Positions 15,234 to 43,011 of a DNA stretch of 64,000 nt are shown piece by piece; within the stretch, counting starts at the first letter, position 1, and the number at the start of each line of letters is the position of its first letter. The translations under genes were made by a program, and so were the position numbers. Below the pieces are notes generated by a model, which saw nothing but the letters and a program-made list of their open reading frames with translations, ran no database searches and was not told the origin of the DNA. The DNA is taken from NCBI GenBank assembly GCA_039795775.1, contig JBDKLC010000003.1, positions 797-64,796 of the forward strand, read 5' to 3'. The DNA is from Candidatus Parcubacteria bacterium (GTDB lineage: Bacteria > Patescibacteriota > Minisyncoccia > Phycocordibacterales > CAIZLB01).

Positions 15234-15414
15234 TACGCTGCCGGGCAAAGAAGCTCCAAGGTTCTCGTCGAGTGTACCAACACTCGGCGAGGCCTTTTCT
15301 TTTTATTTGGTTGGATAACTGTTTTTAAAAAACCGGGGTTAAATAATCAAAAAGTGCTTATTTTTAGCCATTTATATGCAAATACAGCACAGTATTTTAC
15401 TTAAAGATAGTACT

Positions 15415-15443
15415 TGACAATGCGTACAAAAGTAGTATAATTA
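15415..15443 (+). promoter_or_regulatory. sigma-70 consensus promoter TTGACA-N16-TATAAT
   Basis: Exact -35 and -10 hexamers with a 16 nt spacer, ~150 nt upstream of the 15592 ORF. Confidence 0.6.
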
Positions 15444-15591
15444 TATTCGAACAGTTGACCAATGTGGTTGACTGAAAACTAAACCCGCCAGGGAGCTGAC
15501 TTCGACCGTAAGGTCACAGCCCCTACGGGCGAAGTCAGATCTTTGGCAAATTCAACACAAAACCCGGGGACAGAAAGGCCCCAACAATACC

Positions 15592-26352: not shown

Positions 26353-26357
26353 TAAGG

Positions 26358-26429
26358 TGCCCTCGTTAGGAATCGAACCTAAATTTAGAGTTCCGCAAAC
26401 TCTTGTCCTATCCGTTGAACGACGAGAGC
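26358..26429 (-). tRNA. tRNA-Arg (anticodon GCG; unusual unmodified-A34 alternative to ACG)
   Basis: Hand-folded: acceptor GCTCTCG/CGAGGGC (one G-U), D-stem GTTC/GGAC, anticodon loop TTGCGGA, T-loop TTCGATT. Confidence 0.6.
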
Positions 26430-28697: not shown

Positions 28698-30074
28698 ATG
28701 CAAACAAATACAGGTGGCTCAACGCGTTCACATGAACGTGACCTTAAAATTGAGTATGTCCCTTTATCAACCCTATCTTCTCCCGACTATAACCCTCGGA
28801 CATGGAGCAAGGAAACGACTGAGCAACTCAAAGAAAGTATCAACAGATACGGAGTCGTTGATCCTCTGCTTGTTAACTCCGCAGAGAATCGTAAAGGCAT
28901 TGTTATCGGAGGAAACTTCAGACTTTCAGTTCTCAAGGAATTGAATTTTGAAACCGTGCCAGTTGTCTACATAAATATTCCTGATCTCAAGAAAGAAAAG
29001 GAATTGTGTATTCGACTCAACAAGAACCAAGGCGAATGGGATCTTGAACTTCTTTCAAAGTTTGATGAGGCAATACTGAAAGATATAGGTTTCAATTCAG
29101 AATCGCTTGATGATATTTTCGAGGAAGATGACAAAGAAGAACAATTCGACTTACAGAAAGAACTCGACAAATTAAATATCGAAAGTATCAGTGTTCAGAA
29201 GGGTGATGTCTACGACCTCGACGGTTCTCGCCTCATGTGCGGAGACTCAACTATAGAATCCGACATGATGAAGCTATGCGGAGAAGAAAAGGTAGATATG
29301 GTAATGACTGATCCTCCGTATATACTCGACTATCTTCATGGAAAGACTAAACACGGTGAAGCCACTACTGGTTTCGGTGCAAAGAAGAATCGAAGGTACT
29401 TGGAGACTGAAAGTTTGCCTGACAATTTCACTGAGTTATGGATGAACAACGTGAAGAAAGTACAGGCAGAAAACTTCTCAATCATCTGTTATGAGAACTG
29501 GAAGAACATTCGTACCATTTGGGGCGAAATGGAAAAGCATTGGAAAGTTCGCAATATGATCGTCTGGCATCTTCCAAACAGAAACCAAGGGTATGCAGGA
29601 AAGCACAAGTTCTTCTCAAAACATGACATTGCAATGGTTGGCACAAGTGAAAATCATGAAGGAGTCGATCCTGAAGCGGAGGCTGATCCATTGCTTGAGA
29701 ACGAATACCAGACTGCGCTATTCGCTATCAACAAGAGTCCTCATTGGGAATCATATGGTAAAGGTAAGAAATATTGCCCGACCGACTTCATTGACTACAA
29801 TGCAGCCGACGAGAAGTCTTCTGGCCAAGGAATCATATTCGGAACTAAGCCAACAGAAATATTAGTTCCGTACATAAAGGTATTAACTAGACGAGATCAA
29901 ACAGTACTTGAACCATTCTGCGGAAGCGGGAGTACATTGATTGCAAGTACAAAATTGAAAAGACGATGCTTCATCATGGAAAAATCACCAGTCTATGCGG
30001 AGGTCGCGCTTAATCGCTGGGAAAAGTTTACCGGCAAGAAAAGAGTAAAAATCAATGTACAGCCGACATGTTAA
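28698..30074 (+). CDS. ParB-like nuclease domain fused to a beta-class DNA (N6-adenine/N4-cytosine) methyltransferase; orphan MTase typical of phages and plasmids
   Basis: N-terminal ParB/Srx-like region, motif IV TDPPY preceding motif I EPFCGSGST (beta-class order). Confidence 0.7.
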   Translation: MQTNTGGSTRSHERDLKIEYVPLSTLSSPDYNPRTWSKETTEQLKESINRYGVVDPLLVNSAENRKGIVIGGNFRLSVLKELNFETVPVVYINIPDLKKEKELCIRLNKNQGEWDLELLSKFDEAILKDIGFNSESLDDIFEEDDKEEQFDLQKELDKLNIESISVQKGDVYDLDGSRLMCGDSTIESDMMKLCGEEKVDMVMTDPPYILDYLHGKTKHGEATTGFGAKKNRRYLETESLPDNFTELWMNNVKKVQAENFSIICYENWKNIRTIWGEMEKHWKVRNMIVWHLPNRNQGYAGKHKFFSKHDIAMVGTSENHEGVDPEAEADPLLENEYQTALFAINKSPHWESYGKGKKYCPTDFIDYNAADEKSSGQGIIFGTKPTEILVPYIKVLTRRDQTVLEPFCGSGSTLIASTKLKRRCFIMEKSPVYAEVALNRWEKFTGKKRVKINVQPTC

Positions 30075-30663
30075 AAAAGAAATTGTTGCAGCACTTACCG
30101 AGACTCCCTTCATCTATAGAGTATGTAAAAAATTCGGAGTAGCCAGATCAACATTTTACAAATGGCTCAAGGATGACAAGAATTTTTCGAGTGATGTAGT
30201 GATAGCACTTCGAGAAGGAAAAAGAAGTATGAATGAGCTTGCACTATCAAGTCTTGTTAAGCGAGTGAGCGATGGTCACTTTCCAGCAATACGATATTTC
30301 CTTCAGCATAACCATGGTGACTATAGACCACCTGAAAAGGTAAACTCAGTAGCTATGTGGAATGCTCGTATGAGCGCTCTGAGGAAAAAGAAAGAAGAAG
30401 CTCCGTATGAGACATGGAATCCTGAATCTAAATTCCACGATAGTCTTAGTACTAAGCAAGAGATTATGCTCGAGTTACTATTGGAATACAATAGTGTTGA
30501 AGAAGTCAGTATCGATATACGTTCTGAATATTTCGCCAAAGTACTTGAAGATGAGTTCAAAAGTATTACTGAGGCTGAACAATATCTAAAACAAGCGATA
30601 CAACTTGAGAAGGAGTCAGCGAAGCCTTCAGAATCGGCTGATGCAAACCAAACTTCTGGCTAG
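30055..30663 (+). CDS. HTH-domain protein (phage small-terminase-like / transposase-like HTH)
   Basis: GVARSTFYKWL helix-turn-helix. Overlaps the upstream MTase by 20 nt, suggesting coupled translation. Confidence 0.35.
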   Translation: MYSRHVKKEIVAALTETPFIYRVCKKFGVARSTFYKWLKDDKNFSSDVVIALREGKRSMNELALSSLVKRVSDGHFPAIRYFLQHNHGDYRPPEKVNSVAMWNARMSALRKKKEEAPYETWNPESKFHDSLSTKQEIMLELLLEYNSVEEVSIDIRSEYFAKVLEDEFKSITEAEQYLKQAIQLEKESAKPSESADANQTSG

Positions 30664-30940
30664 CGTCTTTTACTTCTGCATCTATTGAATTAGAAAGAAA
30701 AACAAATGGAATATTCTTCGTGCGGTTATCCACCTTGATGGCCTTGAGTAGATCAAGGCCATTTGGCGTTGGTCGAATGACGTCAGAGATTATGAGGTCA
30801 GGTTTTATGATGTCGATTTGAGAAACAAAATCTTTCTCAAGTACATCAAGTGACACAACCTCGAATCCTGATTCCTTGAATACTTTTCCGTAGAGATCGA
30901 GTAGAAACTTGTCGTCATCTATATGAAGTATTTTCTTCAT
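30566..30940 (-). CDS. stand-alone response-regulator receiver (CheY-like) domain protein
   Basis: DDD acidic pocket (HIDDDKF), conserved T/S and K positions. Confidence 0.5.
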   Translation of the reverse strand: MKKILHIDDDKFLLDLYGKVFKESGFEVVSLDVLEKDFVSQIDIIKPDLIISDVIRPTPNGLDLLKAIKVDNRTKNIPFVFLSNSIDAEVKDASQKFGLHQPILKASLTPSQVVSLVLDIVQPQ

Positions 30941-30941
30941 A

Positions 30942-31322
30942 TTATTTAAACAAGATTAATAAGAGAATAATCGCGATGATTGTAAGTAATCCCGCAACTG
31001 CTCCAAGCTGTGCGAATGCAAAATATATTGCACCAACTCCAATGAGGAAGAGGAGTAGTCCAACGATCTTACTTCTTCGAGCTTCGAGGAGGGCTTTTAG
31101 TGTTCCTAAAATGAGCGCGCCTACAATTACAATTCCTGCGAGTAGTATTATTGCTCCAATTCCAGAAAACATTCCTGAAAGGATATTTTCTGGAATATTA
31201 ATAAATCCATAGTAACCAATTGTGCCAATAAGTATTCCGATTATTGGTATGGTTATTAAAAGTACAATAGAACCATAAGCTCCACTTAGAGCTTTGGTCA
31301 GCACTGTTTTTATTTTATTCAT
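30942..31322 (-). CDS. hypothetical integral membrane protein (start taken at MNKIK)
   Basis: Four TM helices, adjacent to the receiver gene. Confidence 0.35.
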   Translation of the reverse strand: MNKIKTVLTKALSGAYGSIVLLITIPIIGILIGTIGYYGFINIPENILSGMFSGIGAIILLAGIVIVGALILGTLKALLEARRSKIVGLLLFLIGVGAIYFAFAQLGAVAGLLTIIAIILLLILFK

Positions 31323-31615
31323 GTTTTTGCGGTTTTTTAACCCGACATAGGATTTTTTTCCATACAAAAATCCCTTAGCCAGGACGATGGTATTACCCAC
31401 CCACACCAGTTTCCCGATGTGACCGCAAAAGTGACCCTAGACTAAGGGGTTTTTATACTTTTGCGGTGTTTATGACCATATCCTAGAAAACCAAGGGTCT
31501 TTTAGGGGTTAGGTCGCTTATTAAGTTGTAAATGAATTGTAGCAGATTTTCCGCTACTTTTGTACCTTAGCTTAGATATGGAGGCTTGCGAAGGGGTGGT
31601 TACCAACAACTCAAT

Positions 31616-32344
31616 TTAGCAGACTGTTGATCCAATTGTCTCAAGCTTCTCCTTAACTTTCTCCCATTTAGGAAACTTCTTGTCGAGAAAATCATAGAAC
31701 CGTTTATCATGGTTCTTATACTTCATGTGACAGAGTTCGTGTACGATAACATAATCAATACAGTCCTTTGAGGTATGAATAAGCCTAGGATTGAGGAATA
31801 TCTTATCCTGATTTAAGAAACTGCCCCAACGTTTCTTCATTTCTCTAACGGAAAGTTTCGGTGTGTTCTTGAAGTCAAAGAGTGAAAGCATTTCAGTGAA
31901 TCTGTCTTGGAGAATTAGGTTTGTCTTTTCTGCAAACCAGCTATCAACGAGTTTTTTGTTGTACTTGCTGTCTGTCACGGACTTAGTTGTAGATACAATC
32001 AACTGACCTCTAGTGAGAGAAACAGAATCTTCTTTACCTTTACGAACAATTAGTTTGTACTGTCTTCCGAGGTACAAATATCCCTCTCCCGAGATGTATT
32101 CTTTCTCATAAGTCTTTCGTTGATATTTTTTGAAGAATGAAAGTTGCTTCTCTAGCCAGAACCATTTCTTCTGGAGAAAGGTTTCGATTCTTTCGCCCTC
32201 TGCCTTGAATGGACACTTAACAATAATACGAAGATCTGGGGTGACAGTGAGGCTCAGGGTTTTACGATCTTGTTTTATAAGTTGGTATTCATATATGAAT
32301 GTTCCAAAAATGAATTCCTTCATATAATTATAAGAATAGATCAA
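31616..32344 (-). CDS. DUF45/YgjP-like (M48-related) metal-dependent hydrolase, a family frequently linked to hsdR
   Basis: HELCH zinc-binding HExxH motif, overlaps the hsdR stop. Confidence 0.6.
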   Translation of the reverse strand: MIYSYNYMKEFIFGTFIYEYQLIKQDRKTLSLTVTPDLRIIVKCPFKAEGERIETFLQKKWFWLEKQLSFFKKYQRKTYEKEYISGEGYLYLGRQYKLIVRKGKEDSVSLTRGQLIVSTTKSVTDSKYNKKLVDSWFAEKTNLILQDRFTEMLSLFDFKNTPKLSVREMKKRWGSFLNQDKIFLNPRLIHTSKDCIDYVIVHELCHMKYKNHDKRFYDFLDKKFPKWEKVKEKLETIGSTVC

Positions 32345-35300
32345 AGTTATTTTCTGCTAATTGCATTGCAGTATCAATAACGACCTTGATGTGATCATTA
32401 TCAATATTGATGCCTTTCTCGCCCTTAAACACATCGTAGAGGTAATCATCAATACTATTTCGCATCTTACGCTTCACATCCATGTTCTTGTACCAGTCTA
32501 CAATTGCCTCATTCTTAATGATCGTGAAGATATCAAGAATGGTGGCAATATAAACATCTTCACTGAGATTCAAATTTGCAAGCTCAGATCGCAAGTTACG
32601 ATAGAACACGTCTGATCCTTTCTGCGATTCAATTTTTTCTGGAAGACTCTCGTCTTTCTTGTTTACCACATCATCACTAATAAGCTTCATTTGTTTCAGA
32701 GCTTCAACATCAGCAAGTTTTCCTTGTCTCATTTTCTCAAGAATGTTAGAAATCTTCTTAGAGAATTTCTCATAGAATTCAGGGTCAGTATCCATTTTTT
32801 CTGTGATAGTCCTTTCAGTCTGTGCAGCGATTGCCTCAGCCTTTGATTTGTCAGAACCGAGTTCTGCTACAGCTTCTTCAAACTGCTTTCGATCAGTAAT
32901 GTTTACTTGCTTTGTGAGCAACTCAACACCACGAGCATCCACATACTTATCAAGGATATTGATAAGTGATTGTTTGTATTCAAGAAGATCAACACGGTCG
33001 GCATACTTCAAGCTCGCAGACTTACGAAGTTCCATAAACTTTTTAAGTTCACGTTTATAGAGATCAAGGTGCTTGAATTCATGAACGAAGTCCTGCAACA
33101 CAAAGCATTCGTTCAGGTTCTTGATGAACTCATTAAGTGTCTTGTAGAAAGTCTCACGCTTTGGCTGATCAGAAAGGAATTGGAGGTACACCTCATCATC
33201 GTTCGATCCTTTGATCTCATTAAACAAATCGTGGACAGTTCCATAGCTTTGTTCGAGATCTTGTATCTTTTCTGACACATCAATAAGAGTTCCTTTAATA
33301 TCGTTCTCATCATAGTTACCGAAAAGCTTCATAGCTGTATCAATGTTTTTAGCGTTCTCTGAGTAGTCCATGATATAGCCCGCAGTCTTTGGTTTTTCCT
33401 TTTTGTTTTCGTAAAGACGGTTTACACGAGCGATAGCCTGAAGTAGGTTATGATCTCTCAAGTCTTTAGCGAGATAGAGTACTGTGTTACGAGGTGCATC
33501 AAAGCCAGTGAGTAGCTTGTCTACCACGATGATCATCTCGATACCGTCATCGTTGTGCTTAAAGCTATCAACAACATCTTTTTCATATTTCTCAACACTA
33601 CTGTGATTTTTTCGAACACCCTCTAGGTATCCGACCACTTCTTTTTTGTGAAGATTTTCTTCATCACCGTCTTCATGCTCGTCGGAAATAATTACAGCAG
33701 TACGAACGTTTCCACGAGTCTCAAAGAACTTCTGGAAAAGAATTGCTGAATATTTAGATGGAGCAACAATTTGCGCCTTAAGCCCTGTGTATTGGAAGTT
33801 GTCGATAAAGTGCTTCTCTATATCATAAGCAATCTCAACAATACGCTGAGGATTGTCTTTAATTATCTTACTTCCAACGTATCGCTGTAGTTCCTTCTTC
33901 TGCTTATCATTGAGTCCTTCAGTGATTCGTTCAACATGGCGGTCAATCTGTTCCGCATTCTGAATAAGATCAACATAACGACCTTCGTAGATAAGGGGAA
34001 GAATAATCTTATCAGCTAAAGCATCATCAATCGTATACTTGTCGATATAGTCACCGAACTTCTTCCAACTCTCTCGGTCTTTCTTCATGAGAGGGGTACC
34101 AGTAAATCCGATGTAGCATGCATTTGGGATGATTCGATTCATCTCAAAGTTAGCCATACCGTTTTGACTTCGGTGCGCCTCGTCGATAAGGACAAAGATG
34201 TTTTTATCATCATCAATAAATCCTGTACTCTTTTTTGCAGCTGATTCAAACTTCTGAACAAGTGTAGTGATAACAGACAAATCTTTCTCCTTAATAAGAT
34301 CAATCAGGTGCTGACCACTTGTAGCCTGAATGACTTCCTTTTTGAGGTTACAGTTTTTGAATGTATCTTTAATTTGCTTGTCCAAATCCTTACGATCAGT
34401 AACGATGATCACACGAGGGTTGAGAATATGAGGATCTTCAATAAGGGTCTTCACAAACATCACCATGGTAAGCGATTTACCAGATCCTTGAGTGTGCCAA
34501 ACAAGCCCACCTTTTCGTCGAGTAATACCGTGATCAGTTACTTCTTCCTCTTCTACGCGCTTGAGCATCTTATGTATAGCAAAATACTGTTGGTATCGTG
34601 AAAGCTTCTTTACTCCTGCATCAAAGAGAATGTAATTCTTTGTTAGGTCTAAAAGTCTTTTTGGTTCGAATAAGAACATAACCCCACAATCCTGTTCGGT
34701 AGGAAGTCTGTCTGTTCTTTGTTTATGACCGTCAGTATATCCGTTCAAATCTTCAAGTACTTGAGTATATATTTCAGTATCAATTTTTTTATGAATAAGA
34801 CCTAATAGCTTTTCGCTAAGTATTTCCTGATCTGATCCTTTTTCTTTCCATACTGCATAGAACTTGTTAGGTGTACCAGTAGTTCCATACTGCAATTCTT
34901 TTCCATTAGTACCAACAAGAAGTTGAGTGTAAGTAAAAAGTTTAGGACAGAATTCAGGGCCCTGATTACGATTCATTTGATTGATAGCTTCCTTTACATC
35001 TACACTAGACTTTTTGTTCTCAATCACCGCAAAAGGGATACCGTTTACGAAGACTACGATATCGGGACGGACATTTTGTTTACCACTTGCTACAAATTCT
35101 ACAGAGACATGGAATGAGTTATTTTCTGGGTTCTCGAAGTCTATGAACTTAAAGTTCTTTGATACTTTCTTGCCCCCGTGATTTACTTTGATTGTCTTAC
35201 CTCCACTCGTTGGCATGATAGTGTTGTAGATCTTTTGTGCAGTATCTATAAGCCCTTCATACTGAATATGCTCAAGTTCATCGATGGCGTCTCGCACATC

Positions 35301-35522
35301 TTTCTCGCTGAATTTATATTCAACACCATCAACTTCGTATCCGTTGATTTCCATGAGCTTCTCCGCAGCAATGTCAGCGAGGATGAAGTTTGAAGTGTCA
35401 CCACGTTGTCGCAGTGCTTCAGCAACAGAAACATACTTGTAACCCATGTTCAACAGAAGCTCTACAAATGGGAGCTGTGACTGTCTGGCTTCATCGAAAT
35501 TTACGTTTATGAGTGATGACAT
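32328..35522 (-). CDS. hsdR: Type I restriction enzyme R subunit
   Basis: SF2 helicase motifs TQGSGKSLT (Walker A), DEAH (FVLIDEAHRSQ), 1064 aa. Confidence 0.92.
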   Translation of the reverse strand: MSSLINVNFDEARQSQLPFVELLLNMGYKYVSVAEALRQRGDTSNFILADIAAEKLMEINGYEVDGVEYKFSEKDVRDAIDELEHIQYEGLIDTAQKIYNTIMPTSGGKTIKVNHGGKKVSKNFKFIDFENPENNSFHVSVEFVASGKQNVRPDIVVFVNGIPFAVIENKKSSVDVKEAINQMNRNQGPEFCPKLFTYTQLLVGTNGKELQYGTTGTPNKFYAVWKEKGSDQEILSEKLLGLIHKKIDTEIYTQVLEDLNGYTDGHKQRTDRLPTEQDCGVMFLFEPKRLLDLTKNYILFDAGVKKLSRYQQYFAIHKMLKRVEEEEVTDHGITRRKGGLVWHTQGSGKSLTMVMFVKTLIEDPHILNPRVIIVTDRKDLDKQIKDTFKNCNLKKEVIQATSGQHLIDLIKEKDLSVITTLVQKFESAAKKSTGFIDDDKNIFVLIDEAHRSQNGMANFEMNRIIPNACYIGFTGTPLMKKDRESWKKFGDYIDKYTIDDALADKIILPLIYEGRYVDLIQNAEQIDRHVERITEGLNDKQKKELQRYVGSKIIKDNPQRIVEIAYDIEKHFIDNFQYTGLKAQIVAPSKYSAILFQKFFETRGNVRTAVIISDEHEDGDEENLHKKEVVGYLEGVRKNHSSVEKYEKDVVDSFKHNDDGIEMIIVVDKLLTGFDAPRNTVLYLAKDLRDHNLLQAIARVNRLYENKKEKPKTAGYIMDYSENAKNIDTAMKLFGNYDENDIKGTLIDVSEKIQDLEQSYGTVHDLFNEIKGSNDDEVYLQFLSDQPKRETFYKTLNEFIKNLNECFVLQDFVHEFKHLDLYKRELKKFMELRKSASLKYADRVDLLEYKQSLINILDKYVDARGVELLTKQVNITDRKQFEEAVAELGSDKSKAEAIAAQTERTITEKMDTDPEFYEKFSKKISNILEKMRQGKLADVEALKQMKLISDDVVNKKDESLPEKIESQKGSDVFYRNLRSELANLNLSEDVYIATILDIFTIIKNEAIVDWYKNMDVKRKMRNSIDDYLYDVFKGEKGINIDNDHIKVVIDTAMQLAENNFDLFL

Positions 35523-35526
35523 ATGT

Positions 35527-36774
35527 TTATTTGGTTAGTTTGGTTGATAATGTTTCTGGTGTGCGTATTTTGCCTGTAATGAGATTGTTGAGAAGGTAGC
35601 GTTTCTGTTCTTTGAAGATGGAAAGTTTCTTTTCAAGTGAATCAATCTCGTTATCTGTTGCTGTGAGAATGTTTGCAATAGCCGTTTGTTCCTTAATTTT
35701 CGGTATATGTATAACAACTTCGGAGACCGTCTCTTTTTTTAAGTTCTGCACTCCTGAACCTGCAGAGATAGAGCGAAATACGCTTTGAATTCTCGATGAG
35801 GAAAGGAGATAGTAAAGAAAGTCCTTATTGACTGATGATGAGATATCCATTAGCGCCAACCAACCGTCGTGTATACAAGCATTAATTTTCATTATGTAAG
35901 GACGACCAAAACTCATTGAATTTGAAAGAATAAAATCTCCTTCTTTTACTAATGTAGTTTTATTAAGTCCCTCCTTTTTAATCTTTTCAGTTGTCTTATA
36001 AATAAATCTGTCTCCAATTGGCACATCTCCAATTCTTAACCAATTCAGTCCGTCTTTATTTTCTGTAATATAATCCTGAATTGGTCGTGGTGATCCACCT
36101 CTTTTTATCTCGCAAATCTCACCAAGTACTTTGAATTCCCATTTATCTTCGAAACCTTTCAATCTCTTATTACCAGTGAGTAAATCTTGCATTAGGCCTT
36201 TTTTTACATTCTTCTTTACTTTTATTTTTTCAGTAATTTTTTCAATCAATTTGTCCCAAGTTTCAAGGACTGAAACAATACGATTTTGTTCAGATAGTGG
36301 AGGAAAGTTTAATTTAATCTTTTCGAAATCACCTTTTGAAACTTCAAGAAATGTACTGCCAGACCCCAATTTCATTAGAGTAGGCTTGATTGATTTAATG
36401 AAATAAAACAAATAATCCACCGTTGTATCTTTTTTTGGAATCAGATTTTTAAAACCTTGATTTGTAGAAATTGGATACGTAGAGATAGAACATTCTCCAA
36501 CCGTCGCACGAGTACAAACAATGAGACTCCCTTTTGGAAGCAATCTTGCGGAGCTATTTTTAAGACCAAGCTCTGTAATCTTCTTCTCTGTCTTTAATGT
36601 TATATATTTACCTGTTTTTGTGATTTCAGTTGGGGTTATCCAGTTTATTTCACCGTCCCAAAAATCTTTATTATTTGTATCAGGTGTGCCTCCAGACGAT
36701 ATATGTGAAACATCTGCAAGTGTAACTTGTGTCCAGCCAGATGGGATATCTTTTTGTAATTGATTATTTTTCAT
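35527..36774 (-). CDS. hsdS: Type I restriction-modification specificity subunit (two target-recognition domains)
   Basis: Two TRDs separated by a conserved helical spacer (LSEQNRIV...), with a C-terminal conserved region. Confidence 0.85.
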   Translation of the reverse strand: MKNNQLQKDIPSGWTQVTLADVSHISSGGTPDTNNKDFWDGEINWITPTEITKTGKYITLKTEKKITELGLKNSSARLLPKGSLIVCTRATVGECSISTYPISTNQGFKNLIPKKDTTVDYLFYFIKSIKPTLMKLGSGSTFLEVSKGDFEKIKLNFPPLSEQNRIVSVLETWDKLIEKITEKIKVKKNVKKGLMQDLLTGNKRLKGFEDKWEFKVLGEICEIKRGGSPRPIQDYITENKDGLNWLRIGDVPIGDRFIYKTTEKIKKEGLNKTTLVKEGDFILSNSMSFGRPYIMKINACIHDGWLALMDISSSVNKDFLYYLLSSSRIQSVFRSISAGSGVQNLKKETVSEVVIHIPKIKEQTAIANILTATDNEIDSLEKKLSIFKEQKRYLLNNLITGKIRTPETLSTKLTK

Positions 36775-36775
36775 A

Positions 36776-38023
36776 TTATTTGATTCTTGGTTTTTTCTTA
36801 AATAGATTTAATGTGTACTCAATTTTATTTAACAATTCATCAAAAGTAATAATCATTACCTCATTATTTGAAGACCTGAATAGTTCAAAACTATCTTTTT
36901 GTTTCGGGCTTAGATTTTTTAAATCACCAGCAATAACCACACATTGTGAATTTGAAATTTGTAAGCCAGATCCACCAAGTTTGGAATAGAAGTTTTTTAG
37001 CAATTCATGCTTCTGATCCTGAACTTGAATAAGTGAGCCAGACAAGTCCTTGCTTATAGGAAAAATACCTTTTCGATATTCTGTCTTCATTATTATGGGT
37101 GTTTTATGAGTTTTTATTTCTATAAAAGCAACGTTGTTGGTTAGATTGTTTTTATATAGAAAATCAACAATTTTATCACTATTGGTTTCTGTAATATTAT
37201 TGCCCCCGACATTAAATTTGTCTTTTGTAAGTGATACTGGAAAATAGAATACATTGCTAAAAATCCAGTTATTTTCATTGAAAAACTTTTGCCAATCCTC
37301 TTCTTTTGTATTTACTTTTAATAATCTTTTATATCTAGAAAGAATGTCCTCAACATATAAAGTGTCGATCTGCCCCTTTGAGGAAAGTAGTATTTCTTTA
37401 CTTAGAATCTTTTTATCAATAAAACCCTTAATGACAATTGAATCAGCATCAGATAGCTTCATCTGATCTATTTCGTATTTATTGAAGAAATTAGACAAGT
37501 CGTTTTCAGTATATTGAATTTTTTGAGCTACACTAAACTTAGATGGCAAAACTGAGTTAAAGATATTTTGATGCGTCTGTCTCAATTCCTTACTCTGCTT
37601 CTCTTTATTTTTTTGTGTACTATATTCAATTTTCCTGAAATCAGTTAAAAGGATTTGAAGTTTACCATTCTTGATTTCTGTTTTACCTTTTTCTAAAAAG
37701 ACAACTTCTTCAATATTTGGATATTTATCTTGAAAAAAATAAAACAAATCCTGAACTCCTTTAGGTTTTGTGAATCCGAAACCGCTCGAAACATTCACAG
37801 ATATACCTGAAGAAGGTCTTTTGCCTCCTGTGGTTGTAATCTTTTTTATAGAGCTATACTTATGTTTAATGGTCCCAAATGAGTTGTAAAATGGGTATCT
37901 TGTTATATTACCATTCGTAAATCTCTCTAAAGCCAAGAAGCCAGTGTCCTTATCCTTTAAATAAAGATTGAATGATTCTTTTAACTTAGTTTTATTTGCC
38001 GACACAAGAGAAACATCTTTCAT
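36776..38023 (-). CDS. PD-(D/E)xK nuclease-fold protein, Shedu (SduA/DUF4263)-like, embedded between hsdM and hsdS
   Basis: C-terminal block EEDWQKFF..NNWIF...DKIVDFLY-x10-VAFIEIK...QVQDQ...CVVIAGDL...FELFR...MIITFDELL matches my recollection of the DUF4263 profile. D-x15-ExK spacing is as in characterised Shedu. Confidence 0.5.
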   Translation of the reverse strand: MKDVSLVSANKTKLKESFNLYLKDKDTGFLALERFTNGNITRYPFYNSFGTIKHKYSSIKKITTTGGKRPSSGISVNVSSGFGFTKPKGVQDLFYFFQDKYPNIEEVVFLEKGKTEIKNGKLQILLTDFRKIEYSTQKNKEKQSKELRQTHQNIFNSVLPSKFSVAQKIQYTENDLSNFFNKYEIDQMKLSDADSIVIKGFIDKKILSKEILLSSKGQIDTLYVEDILSRYKRLLKVNTKEEDWQKFFNENNWIFSNVFYFPVSLTKDKFNVGGNNITETNSDKIVDFLYKNNLTNNVAFIEIKTHKTPIIMKTEYRKGIFPISKDLSGSLIQVQDQKHELLKNFYSKLGGSGLQISNSQCVVIAGDLKNLSPKQKDSFELFRSSNNEVMIITFDELLNKIEYTLNLFKKKPRIK

Positions 38024-38027
38024 ATAT

Positions 38028-39539
38028 TTATTTGATTCCTAGTTCCTTTAGGTATACGACCATTTGTTTCTCAAGCTTCTCAAGCTGTGGCTCAAGCTCA
38101 GCAAGCTCTTTCAGGTTTGCTTTGATATCTACAGGAGCTTCTTCGGTAAACGTATCCACATAGCGAGTGATATTAAGGTTGAAATCATTCTCCTCAATTT
38201 CTTTAAGACTTACTTTACGAGCAAACTTCGCTACATCTTTGCGAGCCTTGTAGGTAGAGTAAATCTTTTCGATGTTTTCATCGGTGAGAATATTTTGAGC
38301 TTTGTTAGATTTGAATTCCTTTGATGCTTCGATAAAGAACACATCTTTTTTACTTTCATTTTCTCCACCTTTTTCTCGTGAGCGATCGATAACAAGAATT
38401 GCGACAGGGATACCCGTTGTTTGGAATAGTCCTGCAGGAAGTCCGATTACAGCCTCAATGATATTTTCCCTGAGAAGTTGTTCACGAATTTTACCTTCTG
38501 CACCACCTCGAAAGAGAACGCCGTGAGGAACAATAACAGCAATACGTCCTGTCTTTGGCTTTGCTGTCTCAATCATGTGAGTAATAAAGGCAAAGTCACC
38601 CTTGTCCTTTGGTGGAGTGCCACGCCAGAATCGTTTGTATTTGTCGGCATCTGCATGTTCAGCGCCCCATTTCTTGAGAGAGAACGGTGGGTTACTTACG
38701 ATTGTATCGAATTTCATTAAGTGATCATTTTCTACAAGGAGTGGATTATTTAAAGTATCGCCCCATTCAAGTCGCGCTGAATCTTTTCCATGGAGAAACA
38801 TGTTCATTCGAGCGAGTTGATATGTTGAACCTGTTGATTCTTGGCCATAGAGAGCGTAGTTCTTTGAACCTTGTTTTTCTACTTCTTCACCTGCAAGTAA
38901 AAGGAGACCTCCTGATCCAGAACATGGGTCACAAATACGAGCACCTGCTTTTGGTTCTGCAAGTTTTGCTACGAGATGAGCAACATTCCTTACTGTAAAA
39001 AATTCTCCAGCTTTTTTTCCTGCATCTGCTCCAAACTTCTCAATAAGATACATATATGAGTTACCAATGACATCATCATTCACGCCAGTGAGGTCAATTT
39101 TTGCAAAGTCCTGTACAAGATTACGAAGCATCTTGTTTCGCTCTGCAAGTTTTCCAAGATTTGATTCTGAGTTGAAGTCTACAGAAAATACACCATCAAG
39201 TTTTTCCTTGTTGTGATCTTCAATACGATGAAGTGCTTTGTTTATTTCTTCTCCAAGATTATCTTGCTCGATAATTGAATAGATATAGTCAAACGATGAC
39301 TTCGGAGGGAGATAGAAGCGGTCAAGCTTCATTTTCTCTTCAATACGTTTCTCATCACCTGCGAATCTTTTTTTGTATTCGTCATGTGTGTTTTTTGATT
39401 TATCGCTAAGATATTTCAAGAAAAGCATTGGGAGTACATAGTTCATGTAATCCGCCGCATTGAGTTGGCTTCGAGAGGAGTTTGCTGAGTCCCATAGGAT
39501 TTTATTTAGGTCTTCTTGTGTGTATTTTTTGTTGGTCAT
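38028..39539 (-). CDS. hsdM: Type I restriction-modification N6-adenine DNA methyltransferase subunit
   Basis: Motif I CDPCSGSGG and motif IV NPPF. Confidence 0.92.
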   Translation of the reverse strand: MTNKKYTQEDLNKILWDSANSSRSQLNAADYMNYVLPMLFLKYLSDKSKNTHDEYKKRFAGDEKRIEEKMKLDRFYLPPKSSFDYIYSIIEQDNLGEEINKALHRIEDHNKEKLDGVFSVDFNSESNLGKLAERNKMLRNLVQDFAKIDLTGVNDDVIGNSYMYLIEKFGADAGKKAGEFFTVRNVAHLVAKLAEPKAGARICDPCSGSGGLLLLAGEEVEKQGSKNYALYGQESTGSTYQLARMNMFLHGKDSARLEWGDTLNNPLLVENDHLMKFDTIVSNPPFSLKKWGAEHADADKYKRFWRGTPPKDKGDFAFITHMIETAKPKTGRIAVIVPHGVLFRGGAEGKIREQLLRENIIEAVIGLPAGLFQTTGIPVAILVIDRSREKGGENESKKDVFFIEASKEFKSNKAQNILTDENIEKIYSTYKARKDVAKFARKVSLKEIEENDFNLNITRYVDTFTEEAPVDIKANLKELAELEPQLEKLEKQMVVYLKELGIK

Positions 39540-39540
39540 G

Positions 39541-40185
39541 TTAGTTCTTAGTTAAGTTAGTAAAGCTTGCGTTGATAATGGTTTTTTGAATTTCTTGTTT
39601 TCTTTTAAATATCCGTTCTTGTTCAATAATATTTTCGTGGAGCGCGATGATCGACTTCTGCGTATGGATAGGAGGTATTGGTATTGGGAAGTCCGTGAGG
39701 TTTTTCACAAGGATGCTTTGTATATATGAAGCACCTGTGACTATTTGAGCGAGAGCTTTTTGCCCATCCTGTGAATTGAGATATAGGGATACATACTTCG
39801 GGAGAACGGTAACATCTTTGATTCGGATGACATGAACCGATGATGAGGGCATCACGTTTGTGTTGTCTGAAGCAAAAACAGCAGAACGGAATGACCCAGC
39901 ACCTGAGCCTCTGGAAACGAGTAAAATGTCGTTATGTTCAAGAAAGTAAGGGTTTCTAATGGATTTGTCTGAAACGATAACTAGGTCATTAGTATTCAAA
40001 ATATCTTGATTTATAGCTATATTCTTGGCTTGTAGCACAAAAATAGCGCCTTTTGGGTCGTTTTCGATGGATCCACGGAATGTGTACCCAGAGGCCATGT
40101 CTGCTATTTCGCTCAATTTCTTGTGCATGTAAGGACTATACTGCACTTTACAATAAAATGCAAATTTAGGTCTTTTAGTTACCAA
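39541..40185 (-). CDS. hsdS: half-size Type I specificity subunit (single TRD plus conserved helical region), first gene of the R-M operon
   Basis: Single TRD-like region followed by ...IIALHENIIEQERIFKRKQEIQ conserved HsdS helix. 214 aa, about half the size of a normal HsdS. Confidence 0.6.
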   Translation of the reverse strand: MVTKRPKFAFYCKVQYSPYMHKKLSEIADMASGYTFRGSIENDPKGAIFVLQAKNIAINQDILNTNDLVIVSDKSIRNPYFLEHNDILLVSRGSGAGSFRSAVFASDNTNVMPSSSVHVIRIKDVTVLPKYVSLYLNSQDGQKALAQIVTGASYIQSILVKNLTDFPIPIPPIHTQKSIIALHENIIEQERIFKRKQEIQKTIINASFTNLTKN

Positions 40186-40232
40186 CTGGGTCGTCCTAGG
40201 CTCTTAGAGGAGTATGTGTCATTGATTGATGT

Positions 40233-41558
40233 ATGAAGACAATAGATCAAATGCCAGGGGCTATGACTGCCCGAGGAATCATAAGCGAGGTAAAGGTGAA
40301 ATACTGCCTTTATGCGAGAAAATCAACAGAATCAGAGGAACGACAAGTCCTTTCAATAGATAGTCAGATCAAAGAAATGCTCCAGTTAGCAGACCGTGAA
40401 GGGCTTGAGGTGGTCACCATGAAGCGTGAGAGTCATTCAGCAAAGGAAACGGGGCAACGACCAGTCTTCAACGAGATCATCGAGGAACTGCGTGATGGCA
40501 AGTTCAATGGAATTTTGACATGGGCACCTGACCGTATTTCAAGAAACGCAGGAGACCTTGGAAGGATAGTGGATCTAATGGATGCGGGTAAGCTTCAAGA
40601 AATCAGGACTTTCGGGCAGAAGTTCGGGAACAACCCAAACGAGAAATTCTTGCTGATGATTCTCGGATCACAAGCAAAGCTCGAGAATGATAATAGAGGT
40701 ATCAACGTGAAGCGAGGATTGCGAACAAGGGTGGAGATGGGGCTGTGGCCAGGAGTGGCACCTCTTGGGTATCTCAACCAAAGAAATATCGACAAGAAGT
40801 GTCAACTTGTAGTTGATGAGCTACGTGCACCGCTGGTAAAAAAAATATTTGAAAGGGTCGCATATGAGAAATTAAGTGGAAGAAAGATATACAATTGGCT
40901 TCGATTCGAAGCCAATTTCTATACACGAGGAAACAAACCACTTACACTCGGGGGTGTATACAGGATATTGGAAAATCCCTTCTATTATGGAATGTTCGAA
41001 TATCCAAAAGATAGTGGTAATTGGTATCAAGGAAAACATGAATCAATAATCACAAAGGAATTATTCGATGAAGCACAGTCACAGCTGAAGCGAGATAATA
41101 TACAAAGAGAAAATAAAGAATTCGCATTTACCAAACTCTTCACATGTGGATACTGTGCGAGTGGAATTTCCGCAGAAGAAAAATGGAAACAATTAAAAGA
41201 TGGTACGCATGCGAAATACATTTACTACTCATGTGCAAGATCGAGGGATAGGAATTGTAAGAATCAATATATCCGAGAGGAAGATCTGATCGTCGAGATG
41301 CTGAAGATACTCGATAAAGTAAATATTAATGAGCTTGGCATGAGACAGAAATTAGAGGACGAAATCGCTCGATTCAATATCTTCCAAAGATCAGTACTTG
41401 GGAGCACAGACAAGATTGGTAATAGAAAAGATACCGACATACGAAATTATGCAAAGTACATACTAAAAGAGGGTGCGGTGACAGAGAAGCGAGAGTTACT
41501 TGCGAATTTGCGGAGCAAGATTATATATAAGGATAAGGTTCTAACTTTGATAGATTAG
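40233..41558 (+). CDS. large serine recombinase (resolvase/integrase family)
   Basis: N-terminal resolvase catalytic domain (YARKSTE..Q.. with Ser nucleophile), recombinase domain, C-terminal zinc ribbon CGYC...C..C. Confidence 0.8.
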   Translation: MKTIDQMPGAMTARGIISEVKVKYCLYARKSTESEERQVLSIDSQIKEMLQLADREGLEVVTMKRESHSAKETGQRPVFNEIIEELRDGKFNGILTWAPDRISRNAGDLGRIVDLMDAGKLQEIRTFGQKFGNNPNEKFLLMILGSQAKLENDNRGINVKRGLRTRVEMGLWPGVAPLGYLNQRNIDKKCQLVVDELRAPLVKKIFERVAYEKLSGRKIYNWLRFEANFYTRGNKPLTLGGVYRILENPFYYGMFEYPKDSGNWYQGKHESIITKELFDEAQSQLKRDNIQRENKEFAFTKLFTCGYCASGISAEEKWKQLKDGTHAKYIYYSCARSRDRNCKNQYIREEDLIVEMLKILDKVNINELGMRQKLEDEIARFNIFQRSVLGSTDKIGNRKDTDIRNYAKYILKEGAVTEKRELLANLRSKIIYKDKVLTLID

Positions 41559-42793
41559 CGTTTATTTCTATCCTTATATTTTTTCTTTCGTAGGCCTAAG
41601 TGATACTTATGAAATTCATCATCATCTCGTTCCTTTTCAATTTCAATATGTTGCATACAACGACCTCGGCGATATGGACCAAATAATTCTGCAAACTCTC
41701 CTTGAAACCAAGGGAGGGTTTGATGCTCGGTACCTTTATTTGTTTCTGATTCAAAATCTGGATCTCCAGGCAATCTTCCATATTCATCCATTGCTCCAGA
41801 ACCACCTGGGCCACCACCCCACATTATTGTCCCGCCCCAATGAATAGCTCTCGGATCAGGCATCAATAAATAACCATGACCATAGGTGTTCCAATTTGAT
41901 TTTGATACAAATTTCTCTGGATAGAGCCATTCCTTTTTTGCTGCGGCAATATAGCGATTCGCTCTGCTCTTAATAATGAAATTAATTTCGCGTACTTCCT
42001 GTTCACTTAAATATCGACGCACTTGAATATCTGTAAATTTAAATATTGCACCTCGAAAAGGATTCGGGTTGGGTCTTACGTTAGTTGCAGGCTGATATGG
42101 ATTTCTAACCCAAGAAAGATTTGTAAGTATTAAGATCTTATCTAAAGATAGAGGAAAGATTGTGTGAGTTCCTTGTAACCAGATGGCAGGATCATTTGAT
42201 TCTCTACACTGTTGTGATCGAGGACCGCATTCTCGATTGTAAACAGTGACAGGGTGATCTGAAATAATAAATTTAGTATCTGATTTTGATGCATCCGCTA
42301 TTAACCAAACGCATTCAGTCCACAAAGCACAGTGTATTCTTCCTAGTTTAAGCATACTTCGTAAAATATCGTCTTTATTTGTACTTTCTATTTCTTTACT
42401 CAGCCATGTCAAACCTTTTGGTGTTCGAAGTTTTTGAGTACTCATGTAGTTCATGATGTCTTCAAATGAATTACGCCAATCTGTTAGTGGGTAATCAAAT
42501 TTTTCAAAATACTCAACAGCAGGCTTTCCTTTAGTATCAATTTGCCCAAAGAAATGTTTTTCAATATCTTTTGGTTGTATCCCTGTAATCTTCGTTGTAT
42601 ACAAATCTTCTTCAACAAAACACTTTTTACTACCTTGTCTCCATAGGGATTGCTTATCGTGCTTAATACCTCTCGGGTCTATAAAATAACCTGGTTTCAT
42701 GTCTAGGTAGAAAAGTTCCGACTCCTCGGGGAGCATAAACTTTTTTTGGTACCATTGAGGTACATAATGATGGTTTTTATAGTCGTCACTCAT
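41555..42793 (-). CDS. DUF4238-like protein (defense-island associated family of unknown function)
   Basis: N-terminal HHYVPQWYQKKF matches the DUF4238 signature H-Y-[IV]-P-Q-F-Y-L. 412 aa. Confidence 0.5.
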   Translation of the reverse strand: MSDDYKNHHYVPQWYQKKFMLPEESELFYLDMKPGYFIDPRGIKHDKQSLWRQGSKKCFVEEDLYTTKITGIQPKDIEKHFFGQIDTKGKPAVEYFEKFDYPLTDWRNSFEDIMNYMSTQKLRTPKGLTWLSKEIESTNKDDILRSMLKLGRIHCALWTECVWLIADASKSDTKFIISDHPVTVYNRECGPRSQQCRESNDPAIWLQGTHTIFPLSLDKILILTNLSWVRNPYQPATNVRPNPNPFRGAIFKFTDIQVRRYLSEQEVREINFIIKSRANRYIAAAKKEWLYPEKFVSKSNWNTYGHGYLLMPDPRAIHWGGTIMWGGGPGGSGAMDEYGRLPGDPDFESETNKGTEHQTLPWFQGEFAELFGPYRRGRCMQHIEIEKERDDDEFHKYHLGLRKKKYKDRNKR

Positions 42794-42921: not shown

Positions 42922-43011
42922 TGGCGGAGGAGGTGAGATTCGAACTCACGGGACCCTTGCGAGCCCTCCTGTTTTCAAGACAGGTGCAATCGACCACTCT
43001 GCCACTCCTCC
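42922..43011 (-). tRNA. tRNA-Ser (anticodon TGA), long variable arm
   Basis: Hand-folded: acceptor GGAGGAG/CTCCTCC + G + CCA, anticodon loop CTTGAAA, long extra arm, T-loop GTTCGAATC. Confidence 0.85.

What the first reader, a model, noticed from the sequence alone, without database searches (positions are those of the whole stretch)
31616..40185. Six-gene Type I R-M operon carrying an extra half-HsdS and an embedded non-R-M nuclease gene
All six genes are on the minus strand with 1-5 nt gaps or overlaps, so they are almost certainly co-transcribed. Order is half-hsdS (39541-40185), hsdM, a 415 aa non-R-M protein, full two-TRD hsdS, hsdR, and a DUF45/YgjP-like HExxH hydrolase overlapping the hsdR stop. 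Cargo genes wedged between hsdM and hsdS are a known hallmark of composite defense loci (for example the anticodon nuclease PrrC in prr loci). Here the cargo looks like a different nuclease family (see separate finding), giving a possible R-M + abortive-infection hybrid.
Basis: partly seen in the sequence, partly recalled or inferred. Interest (0 to 1): 0.8.

Follow-up and report, generated by a model that had tools for sequence, protein, structure and literature searches.

The report
Restriction operon carrying a Shedu nuclease
A bacterial DNA-restriction gene cluster (Type I R-M) in a Parcubacteria genome has a second, independent anti-virus nuclease gene (Shedu) nested inside it; this pairing is real and recurs in relatives, but this kind of nesting has already been described in the literature.

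Summary
The six minus-strand genes exist as described and all are intact. They are a half-size HsdS, HsdM, a 415-aa embedded protein, a two-TRD HsdS, HsdR and a YgjP/DUF45 metalloprotease-like protein. Gaps are 1-4 nt once two start codons are corrected.

The embedded protein is a Shedu nuclease (SduA). It matches Pfam PF14082 and a PADLOC SduA model at 2.6e-61, has all PD-(D/E)xK catalytic residues, and its model matches solved Shedu structures. Its N-terminal domain has no assignable fold.

The same six-gene order occurs in at least five other contigs. Across this SduA clade, about 25-32% of loci sit inside Type I R-M operons, in at least four separate branches and at two positions (hsdM-X-hsdS or hsdS-X-hsdR). 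Other members stand alone.

The best reading is a working Type I R-M operon with a nested, co-transcribed but autonomous Shedu gene, on a roughly 16.5-kb serine-recombinase island between two tRNA genes.

Shedu genes inside R-M systems (602 cases) and defence genes embedded in Type I R-M operons are already published, so this is a new member of a known kind. "Abortive infection" is not supported, because characterised Shedu acts directly on DNA without killing the host. Interest is modest.

The parts
40135..40164 (-). Promoter-like -35/-10 pair (TTTGCA, 18 nt, TATAGT) ending 7 nt before the ATG at 40128. This is the candidate operon promoter and possibly gives a leaderless transcript.
   Evidence: Consensus scan only; the scan is not enriched over shuffles, so this is weak.
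39541..40128 (-). Half-size hsdS: one target-recognition domain plus one C-terminal dimerisation helix, 195 aa from ATG 40128 (the mechanical TTG start is 40185).
   Evidence: Methylase_S 6e-9 and PADLOC Specificity_I 1.5e-19. Intact 192-199-aa orthologues sit in the same position in L001, L068, L158 and L159, at 36-64% identity. The closest solved structure is the homodimeric half-S protein Esub1, 8VSR.
38028..39539 (-). hsdM, the N6-adenine methyltransferase subunit (503 aa).
   Evidence: TIGR00497 is above its cutoff, with HsdM_N plus N6_Mtase at 1.5e-99. Motif I DPCSGSG and motif IV NPPF are present.
36776..38023 (-). sduA, the embedded Shedu nuclease (415 aa). Residues 1-~160 are an N-terminal domain of unassigned fold, residues ~175-236 a helical linker, and residues ~239-411 the DUF4263 PD-(D/E)xK nuclease. 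GC is 0.296, against 0.39 for the flanking hsd genes.
   Evidence: PF14082 1.9e-25 and PADLOC SduA 2.6e-61. E241, D287, E302-x-K304 and Q333 are invariant in 39 homologues. The clade profile matches B. cereus Shedu 8TI8 at 3e-61. Foldseek matches 8TI8/8TI9 at 1e-12 and 8PS4.
35527..36774 (-). Full-length hsdS with two target-recognition domains and two conserved helical regions (415 aa).
   Evidence: Two Methylase_S stretches, 1.5e-50. The conserved regions are nearly identical and the TRDs differ between the window, L001, L068 and L159.
32328..35522 (-). hsdR, the restriction/translocase subunit (1064 aa).
   Evidence: TIGR00348 486 bits, with HSDR_N, SWI2_SNF2 and T1R_D3-like domains. The PD...ExK nuclease motif, Walker A GSGKS and DEAH are present.
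31616..32323 (-). YgjP-like/DUF45 (SprT/WLM-related) zinc metalloprotease-like gene, 235 aa from ATG 32323.
   Evidence: PF01863 2.6e-52 and HELCH at residue 195. The same gene follows hsdR in L001, L015, L068, L159, L132, L141 and L147 and in annotated plasmids such as Zymomonas pZZ6.03.
31539..31557 (-). Terminator-like hairpin about 60 nt after the YgjP stop; the candidate end of the operon.
   Evidence: Consensus scan; the T-run is weak (sequence).
40233..41558 (+). Context: a large serine recombinase transcribed divergently from the operon. It is the probable mobility gene of the island that carries the operon.
   Evidence: Resolvase, Recombinase and Zn_ribbon_recom domains. Orthologues sit next to the same operon in L068, L159 and L015.
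31386..31515 (-). Context: LOOT RNA (RF03000) immediately downstream of the operon, on the same strand.
   Evidence: Rfam match of 71 bits over the full-length model. It recurs in the related islands L015, L159 and L011.

Best explanation
This is a functional Type I restriction-modification operon with an autonomous Shedu defence nuclease gene nested between hsdM and hsdS. The operon lies in a Candidatus Parcubacteria genome, on a roughly 16.5-kb serine-recombinase island between tRNA-Arg and tRNA-Ser.

Inferred: the six genes are transcribed as one unit from upstream of the half-hsdS, so both defences are expressed and transferred together.

From family knowledge: HsdM2-HsdS methylates the host's bipartite target, and HsdR2M2S translocates and cuts unmethylated incoming DNA.

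Inferred: the half-HsdS most likely homodimerises and gives the same HsdM/HsdR a second, palindromic specificity.

Inferred by homology to solved Shedu enzymes: SduA works on its own as a Type 1 Shedu. A homo-oligomeric PD-(D/E)xK nuclease is kept off by its N-terminal sensor domain and is switched on by an infection-associated nucleic-acid cue. In E. coli SduA that cue is free DNA ends. SduA then damages phage DNA without host suicide, so it covers phages that escape restriction.

The YgjP-like protein is a routine hsdR-linked accessory whose role is unknown.
For: All six ORFs are intact and carry their catalytic motifs, with gaps of 1-4 nt.

SduA identity rests on several results: PF14082 and PADLOC SduA, invariant motif I-IV residues, a profile hit to B. 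cereus Shedu at 3e-61, and a structural match to 8TI8/8TI9/8PS4.

SduA autonomy: homologues at 44-47% identity with the same N-terminal domain stand alone in integrase and SIR2-HerA islands, and most clade members have no adjacent hsd genes.

SduA is cargo: its GC is lower than the flanking hsd genes in every embedded locus. It sits at two different positions and in at least four separate clades. Other cargo ORFs (DUF4145, a 108-aa ORF and others) share the same operons.

The R-M system is under diversifying selection: the TRDs differ while the conserved regions are retained.

The half-HsdS is conserved and intact in five relatives. Truncated half-S subunits work as homodimers with palindromic sites (Loenen 2013 Table 2), and Esub1 is a half-S homodimer.

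Literature: 602 Shedu genes lie inside R-M systems; embedded defence genes share the host operon's orientation in 96.7% of cases; EcSduA is non-abortive and senses DNA ends.
Against: There are no expression, methylome or phage data for this organism, so co-transcription and activity are inferred. The promoter and terminator matches are weak consensus hits.

The clade is embedded in Type I R-M operons far more often (10/31 and about 20/80 loci) than the distant Shedu loci from the same scan (0/35) or the 11% reported for all Shedu. This hints at more than neutral co-location.

For Esub1, binding to HsdM could not be shown, so the role proposed for the half-HsdS is not secure.
Confidence: 0.78

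Rival explanations
1. Functional coupling. This SduA clade is mechanistically tied to the Type I enzyme. It might use the double-strand ends made by HsdR as its activating ligand and so finish off restricted DNA. Alternatively it might act as a guardian that fires when the R-M complex is inhibited, as PrrC does.
For: Embedding is repeated and independent, in at least four SduA clades, always in the operon's orientation and with tight junctions. It is enriched relative to other Shedu (10/31 against 0/35; 11% overall in Gu et al.). E. coli SduA senses free dsDNA ends, which Type I cleavage produces. There are precedents for cooperation: PrrC-EcoprrI, and TgvAB protecting 10-100-fold better with its host R-M cluster.
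Against: The same clade, with the same N-terminal domain, occurs stand-alone in most loci. The position within the operon varies. The N-terminal domain shows no HsdS/HsdM/HsdR-like fold. The enrichment counts are not phylogenetically independent.
Confidence: 0.15
2. The half-HsdS is not a second specificity subunit. Instead it is a DNA-binding regulator of the operon (an Esub1-like homodimer acting as a controller), or a silent spare TRD kept for recombination.
For: Its closest solved relative, Esub1, is a homodimer proposed to be a transcription-factor-like protein, and its binding to HsdM was not shown. It is the first gene, next to the promoter-like site. It is more conserved among relatives (36-64%) than the TRDs of the full HsdS.
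Against: It sits 1 nt upstream of hsdM on the same strand. It keeps the Methylase_S TRD plus the C-terminal helix. L015 has only a half-S, fused to HsdM, as its specificity module. Truncated half-S subunits are functional. It shares no repeats with the full hsdS that would allow recombination.
Confidence: 0.25
3. This is a phase-variable Type I system, in which the neighbouring serine recombinase shuffles TRDs between the half-hsdS and the full hsdS.
For: There are two hsdS-type genes and an adjacent recombinase. Multi-hsdS switching systems are well known (titles and abstracts).
Against: There are no significant inverted or direct repeats between the two hsdS genes; the longest shared matches are chance-level 14-20-mers. 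Both genes are on the same strand and show no sequence similarity. The recombinase is a large serine recombinase of the integrase type lying next to a tRNA, as in the related islands.
Confidence: 0.02
4. The embedded gene is a decayed or non-defensive passenger, such as an inactive nuclease remnant.
For: Its AT-rich composition differs from its neighbours.
Against: The ORF is full length. All catalytic residues are invariant across 39 homologues down to 30% identity. The model is confident, with pLDDT 83 overall and 95.5 for the N-terminal domain. The gene is conserved in the same place in at least five relatives at 75-87% identity.
Confidence: 0.03

Closest known systems
Shedu (SduA) anti-phage nucleases: B. 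cereus Shedu (PDB 8TI8/8TI9) and E. coli SduA (8PS4/8PS5/8PS6)
   Same: It has the C-terminal DUF4263 PD-(D/E)xK nuclease with all motif residues. The clade profile matches B. cereus Shedu at E 3e-61, and Foldseek gives E 1e-12. The overall Type 1 layout of N-terminal domain, helical linker and nuclease, at about 410 aa, matches EcSduA.
Shedu genes encoded inside R-M systems (Gu et al. 2023/2025) and 'guilt-by-embedding' in Type I R-M operons (Payne et al. 2024)
   Same: A known defence gene lies between genes of a Type I R-M operon, in the same orientation.
   Different: Those surveys are mostly of RefSeq phyla; this case is in CPR/Patescibacteria. This particular SduA clade shows a higher embedded fraction (about 25-32%) and two insertion positions. 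These details were not seen in the passages of the two preprints that were read; their supplementary tables and figures were not examined.
PrrC anticodon nuclease in the EcoprrI Type IC locus
   Same: It is a non-R-M nuclease gene embedded in a Type I operon and co-expressed with it.
   Different: PrrC is an RNA (tRNA-Lys) nuclease held latent within the R-M complex. It causes abortive infection and is almost exclusively found embedded. SduA is a DNA nuclease of another fold. It gave no PrrC model hit, is mostly stand-alone, and its characterised relatives are non-abortive.
TgvAB, a Type IV GmrSD-like pair embedded in the Vibrio cholerae VPI-2 Type I R-M cluster
   Same: It is an independent DNA-targeting defence nested in a Type I operon and complements it.
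   Different: TgvAB is a two-gene, modification-dependent system of different families, and it has been tested experimentally. This locus has not.
Half-size S subunits: truncated EcoDXXI HsdS, and S. pyogenes Esub1 (8VSR)
   Same: Each has a single TRD plus one dimerisation helix, about 195 aa. Esub1 is the best PDB sequence hit, at 8e-7.
   Different: Here the half-S is a natural, conserved first gene of the operon alongside a full two-TRD hsdS. Esub1 is encoded far from any hsd genes and was not shown to bind HsdM.
hsdR followed by a YgjP/SprT-family metalloprotease gene (for example Zymomonas mobilis plasmid pZZ6.03)
   Same: The order hsdM-hsdS-hsdR-SprT/YgjP is the same, with tight spacing. 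Homologues occur on 537 plasmids.
   Different: Nothing notable differs. The function of this accessory is uncharacterised in either case.

Membership tests
Type I restriction-modification system | HsdM gamma-class N6-adenine methyltransferase with motif I and NPPF. | tested here: met
   TIGR00497 261 bits (cutoff 243). DPCSGSG at residue 204 and NPPF at residue 283.
Type I restriction-modification system | HsdS with two TRDs separated by conserved helical regions. | tested here: met
   Two Methylase_S stretches. The central and C-terminal conserved regions are invariant and the TRDs vary among four orthologues.
Type I restriction-modification system | HsdR with an N-terminal PD-(D/E)xK nuclease and an SF2 motor. 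| tested here: met
   TIGR00348 486 bits (cutoff 285). PD...ENK, GSGKS and DEAH motifs are present.
Type I restriction-modification system | Sequence-specific methylation and ATP-dependent restriction activity. | not testable with these tools
   This needs a methylome or biochemistry.
Shedu (SduA) | DUF4263 / SduA_C domain above the family threshold. | tested here: met
   PF14082 90.3 bits (cutoff 27). PADLOC SduA PDLC00384 at 2.6e-61.
Shedu (SduA) | PD-(D/E)xK motifs I-IV, as defined for B. cereus Shedu (E204, D249, E264/K266, Q295). | tested here: met
   E241, D287, E302/K304 and Q333 are invariant in 39 sequences and align to the B. cereus residues.
Shedu (SduA) | Nuclease-domain fold like solved Shedu structures. 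| tested here: met
   Foldseek: 8TI8_C E 1.2e-12, 8TI9 TM(target) 0.76, 8PS4 E 7e-11. The full model has mean pLDDT 83, but the loop at residues 262-286, next to catalytic D287, is below pLDDT 50.
Shedu (SduA) | Works as a single-gene system, with no obligatory partner genes. | tested here: met
   Same-clade homologues stand alone with unrelated neighbours. Most of about 110 clade loci lack adjacent hsd genes. This is genomic evidence only.
Shedu (SduA) | Homotetramer formation and anti-phage activity. | not testable with these tools
   No multimer prediction or experiment was available.
PrrC-type R-M guardian (anticodon nuclease) | PrrC family sequence (NTPase domain plus anticodon nuclease domain). 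| tested here: not met
   The only Pfam and PADLOC hits are SduA models, with no PrrC hit.
PrrC-type R-M guardian (anticodon nuclease) | Near-exclusive occurrence inside Type I R-M operons. | tested here: not met
   Only about 25-32% of clade loci are embedded. PrrC is almost exclusively embedded.
Phase-variable (shufflon-type) Type I R-M | Repeats shared by multiple hsdS copies that allow recombination or inversion. | tested here: not met
   No repeats above chance link 39541-40185 and 35527-36774. BLASTP between the two proteins gives E 0.6.
YgjP-like / DUF45 metallopeptidase family | PF01863 domain with an HExxH zinc site. | tested here: met
   178 bits (cutoff 26). HELCH at residue 195 of the 235-aa protein.
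Defence gene embedded in a defence operon (Payne et al. definition) | Lies between genes of the host system, on the same strand, with no pseudogenes. | tested here: met
   sduA lies between hsdM and hsdS. All genes are on the minus strand and intact.

The most novel reading that the evidence does not exclude
This SduA clade, with its own N-terminal domain of unassigned fold, may be specialised for life inside Type I R-M operons and functionally coupled to them. It could be activated by the DNA ends or stalled complexes that HsdR produces, or by inhibition of the R-M complex. The six genes, with the half-HsdS giving a second specificity, would then form one integrated two-layer machine rather than two independent systems. 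The at least four independent embeddings, and the 25-32% embedded fraction against 0/35 for other Shedu in the same scan, would be the genomic trace of that coupling.
Probability: 0.15. Interest if true: 0.6.

Novelty: new member of a known kind. Interest (0 to 1): 0.3.

Why it matters
The locus is a clean, conserved natural example of layered defence in an ultra-small CPR bacterium. Two DNA-targeting systems with different self/non-self logic are packed into one transcription unit on a mobile island. It gives a defined construct for two tests: whether Shedu and Type I restriction cooperate, and whether a natural half-HsdS adds a second specificity. It does not change current understanding, because the nesting of Shedu in R-M systems and of defence genes in Type I operons is already published.

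Tried and rejected

(2) hsdS shuffling or phase variation through the neighbouring recombinase. Rejected: no shared repeats were found.

(3) A 17-nt similarity between the 3' ends of hsdM and sduA (AAC[T/C]A[G/A]GAATCAAATAA) as an insertion footprint. Not convincing, because it is not conserved in L001 or L068 and largely reflects similar ...IK-stop C-termini in AT-rich codons.

(4) rRNA as the cause of the GC-rich stretch at 14-17 kb. Rejected: no Rfam hit was found.

(5) A literature check of the YgjP/COG1451 link to Type I R-M. Searches found nothing usable and Makarova 2011 is not held. The link was instead shown empirically from loci and annotated plasmids.

(6) A fold search of AFDB with the N-terminal domain. 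The library was unavailable.

(7) A sequence search for the N-terminal domain outside Shedu. Only 19 representative clusters were found. They are essentially SduA-length proteins, short ORFs of 114-202 aa that are probably fragments, and a few long proteins hit through many short stretches that look repetitive and were not examined further.

(8) A viral-contig scan. Five loci were found, and only one is in a Type I R-M operon.


Full report
OBSERVATION. Region 31616-40185 holds six uninterrupted minus-strand ORFs. Family scans identify them as follows.
- A single-TRD HsdS (39541-40185).
- HsdM (38028-39539; TIGR00497 above cutoff).
- A 415-aa non-R-M protein (36776-38023).
- A two-TRD HsdS (35527-36774).
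- HsdR (32328-35522; TIGR00348 above cutoff).
- A YgjP-like/DUF45 HExxH protein (31616-32344; PF01863 2.6e-52).

All catalytic signatures are present. HsdM has DPCSGSG and NPPF. HsdR has PD...ENK, GSGKS and DEAH. YgjP has HELCH.

Two mechanical TTG starts are probably wrong. The half-hsdS most likely begins at ATG 40128 (195 aa), because orthologues are 192-199 aa. YgjP most likely begins at ATG 32323, 4 nt after the hsdR stop. The gaps are then 1, 4, 1, 4 and 4 nt, and there is no overlap.

A -35/-10-like pair at 40164-40135 and a hairpin at 31557-31539 bracket the cluster. These are weak consensus hits, so co-transcription remains an inference from spacing.

THE EMBEDDED GENE. It is a Shedu nuclease (SduA). 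It matches Pfam SduA_C/DUF4263 at 1.9e-25 over residues 239-398, and PADLOC SduA at 2.6e-61 over residues 73-411.

In an alignment of 39 homologues reaching down to 30% identity, E241, D287, E302-I-K304 and Q333/Q337 are invariant. A profile of that alignment hits B. cereus Shedu (8TI8) at 3e-61 over residues 204-412. The invariant residues align with the published catalytic motifs I-IV (E204, D249, E264/K266, Q295).

The AlphaFold model (pLDDT 83) matches 8TI8/8TI9 at E 1e-12 and E. coli SduA 8PS4.

The layout is an N-terminal domain (about residues 1-125 plus a long helix to 158), a helical linker, then the nuclease. This parallels E. coli SduA, which has an NTD at 1-145, a linker, and DUF4263 at 195-408.

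COMPARATIVE CONTEXT. The window protein is identical to a 'hypothetical protein' of a Candidatus Parcubacteria MAG.

The core order half-hsdS, hsdM, sduA, hsdS, hsdR, ygjP recurs in full in L001 (Nomurabacteria, SduA 78%), L068 (82%) and L159 (75%). It is seen in part on the contig-limited L078 (77%) and L158 (83%). Some relatives carry further cargo. L159 has DUF4145 and a 108-aa ORF. L001 has 108-aa and 278-aa ORFs.

HsdS conserved regions are nearly identical among these relatives, while the TRDs differ. This is the usual sign of an R-M system under diversifying selection.

Across the wider SduA clade, 10 of 31 species-representative genome loci lie inside Type I operons, as do about 20 of 80 metagenome loci. 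The position is either hsdM-X-hsdS or hsdS-X-hsdR. On a neighbour-joining tree, the embedded members fall into four separate branches, interleaved with stand-alone members.

Stand-alone members occur, for example, in Flavobacterium and in an unclassified MAG, next to integrases and SIR2-HerA. None of 35 more distant Shedu loci from the same scan has hsdM or hsdR nearby (Fisher p = 2e-4, not corrected for phylogeny).

In every embedded locus, sduA is more AT-rich than the flanking hsd genes.

Taken together, SduA is an autonomous cassette that has repeatedly lodged in Type I operons, and those operons are cargo hotspots.

ISLAND. Housekeeping genes (RuvA, Fpg, S20) run up to tRNA-Arg at 26356-26429. 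RuvX follows tRNA-Ser at 42922-43011. Between them lies about 16.5 kb that contains:
- a ParB_N-N6_N4 methyltransferase;
- an HTH protein;
- a receiver-domain protein;
- a membrane protein;
- a LOOT RNA;
- the operon;
- a divergent large serine recombinase;
- a DUF4238 gene.

L068, L159 and L015 share this recombinase and ParB-MTase backbone. In L015 the backbone is conserved: the recombinase is 58% identical at the protein level, the ParB-MTase 69% at the nucleotide level, and the LOOT RNA is present. Its slot, however, holds a very different Type I system (HsdR 28% identical, and an HsdM-half-HsdS fusion) with a 34%-identical SduA in the hsdS-X-hsdR position.

MECHANISM. Shown: gene content, intact motifs, fold, tight spacing and conservation. 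Everything else below is inferred.
- There is one transcript.
- Canonical Type I methylation and restriction operate.
- The half-HsdS homodimerises to add a palindromic specificity. The precedents are truncated EcoDXXI S subunits, the Esub1 half-S homodimer and the half-S-only system in L015.
- SduA acts independently as a sensor-gated nuclease on phage DNA and is non-abortive, by analogy with EcSduA.
- The YgjP-like protein is a common hsdR-linked accessory of unknown role.

The main rival is functional coupling between SduA and the R-M enzyme. The enrichment and repeated embedding keep this alive. The many stand-alone relatives and the lack of any Hsd-like fold in the N-terminal domain weaken it.

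COMPARISON AND NOVELTY. Gu et al. report 602 of 5,499 Shedu genes inside R-M systems, including Type I. Payne et al. show that Type I operons frequently hold embedded defence genes, 96.7% of them co-oriented with the host system. TgvAB and PrrC are worked examples.

This locus is therefore a new member of a known kind. The modestly new points are:
- the CPR host;
- a clade-specific N-terminal domain of unassigned fold;
- the high embedded fraction of the clade, at two insertion positions;
- the conserved leading half-hsdS.

Interest is 0.3.

Noticed in passing
window 31386-31515 (-); L015 14741-14865; L159 15530-15649; L011 9356-9476: LOOT RNA (Rfam RF03000, 71-87 bits, full-length matches) recurs inside or at the edge of the serine-recombinase/ParB-methyltransferase islands that carry this SduA clade in CPR genomes. 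In the window and in L015 it lies about 100 nt downstream of the YgjP stop on the same strand. It may be an RNA of the mobile element. It was not found in L001 or L068.
   Followed up: partly
L015 6192-17222 compared with window 28698-41558: Related islands share a backbone: the serine recombinase is 58% identical at the protein level, the LOOT RNA is present, and the ParB-MTase is 69% identical at the nucleotide level. Between these they carry very different Type I systems and SduA clades (HsdR 28%, SduA 34%, and a different intra-operon position). This suggests that whole R-M-plus-Shedu modules are swapped in a cargo slot.
   Followed up: partly
L015 7600-9870: A single 756-aa ORF appears to fuse HsdM with a half-size HsdS, and no separate full hsdS is present in that operon.
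   Followed up: no
window 14139-16779: A stretch of 51-57% GC sits in a roughly 39% GC genome, between a T2SSE ATPase gene and polA. It holds two ORFs (364 and 395 aa) with no Pfam hit. They are rich in Ala, Gly and Arg, and at least one has a membrane segment. There is no rRNA here. It is probably foreign DNA.
   Followed up: partly
window 41555-42793 (-): A DUF4238 gene (412 aa) converges on the serine recombinase gene, with a 4-nt overlap of their 3' ends, and lies directly beside tRNA-Ser. It has no PADLOC hit, and it is absent next to the recombinase in L068, L159 and L015.
   Followed up: no
L159 4218-4544 and 6059-6745; L001 8158-8484 and 12634-13470: Close relatives of the operon carry extra embedded ORFs: a 108-aa ORF between the half-hsdS and hsdM, DUF4145 between hsdM and sduA, and a 278-aa ORF between hsdS and hsdR. 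The operon is therefore a hotspot for cargo.
   Followed up: no
L158 (ENA contig; protein P0014 labelled 'Bacteroidetes bacterium GWE2_40_15'): An 83%-identical SduA with the same half-hsdS/hsdM/sduA order is attributed to a Bacteroidetes MAG. This reflects either recent cross-phylum transfer or mis-binning of a CPR contig.
   Followed up: no
L068 21053-21248: A CBASS-type SMODS cyclase gene begins just beyond the ParB-MTase and S24 peptidase genes of the related island, so these islands can carry further defence systems.
   Followed up: no
window 40128-40164 (-): The -10-like hexamer ends 7 nt before the ATG of the half-hsdS, and there is no Shine-Dalgarno-like sequence. This would imply a leaderless first gene if the promoter is real. 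None of the five internal junctions shows a clear SD either.
   Followed up: no
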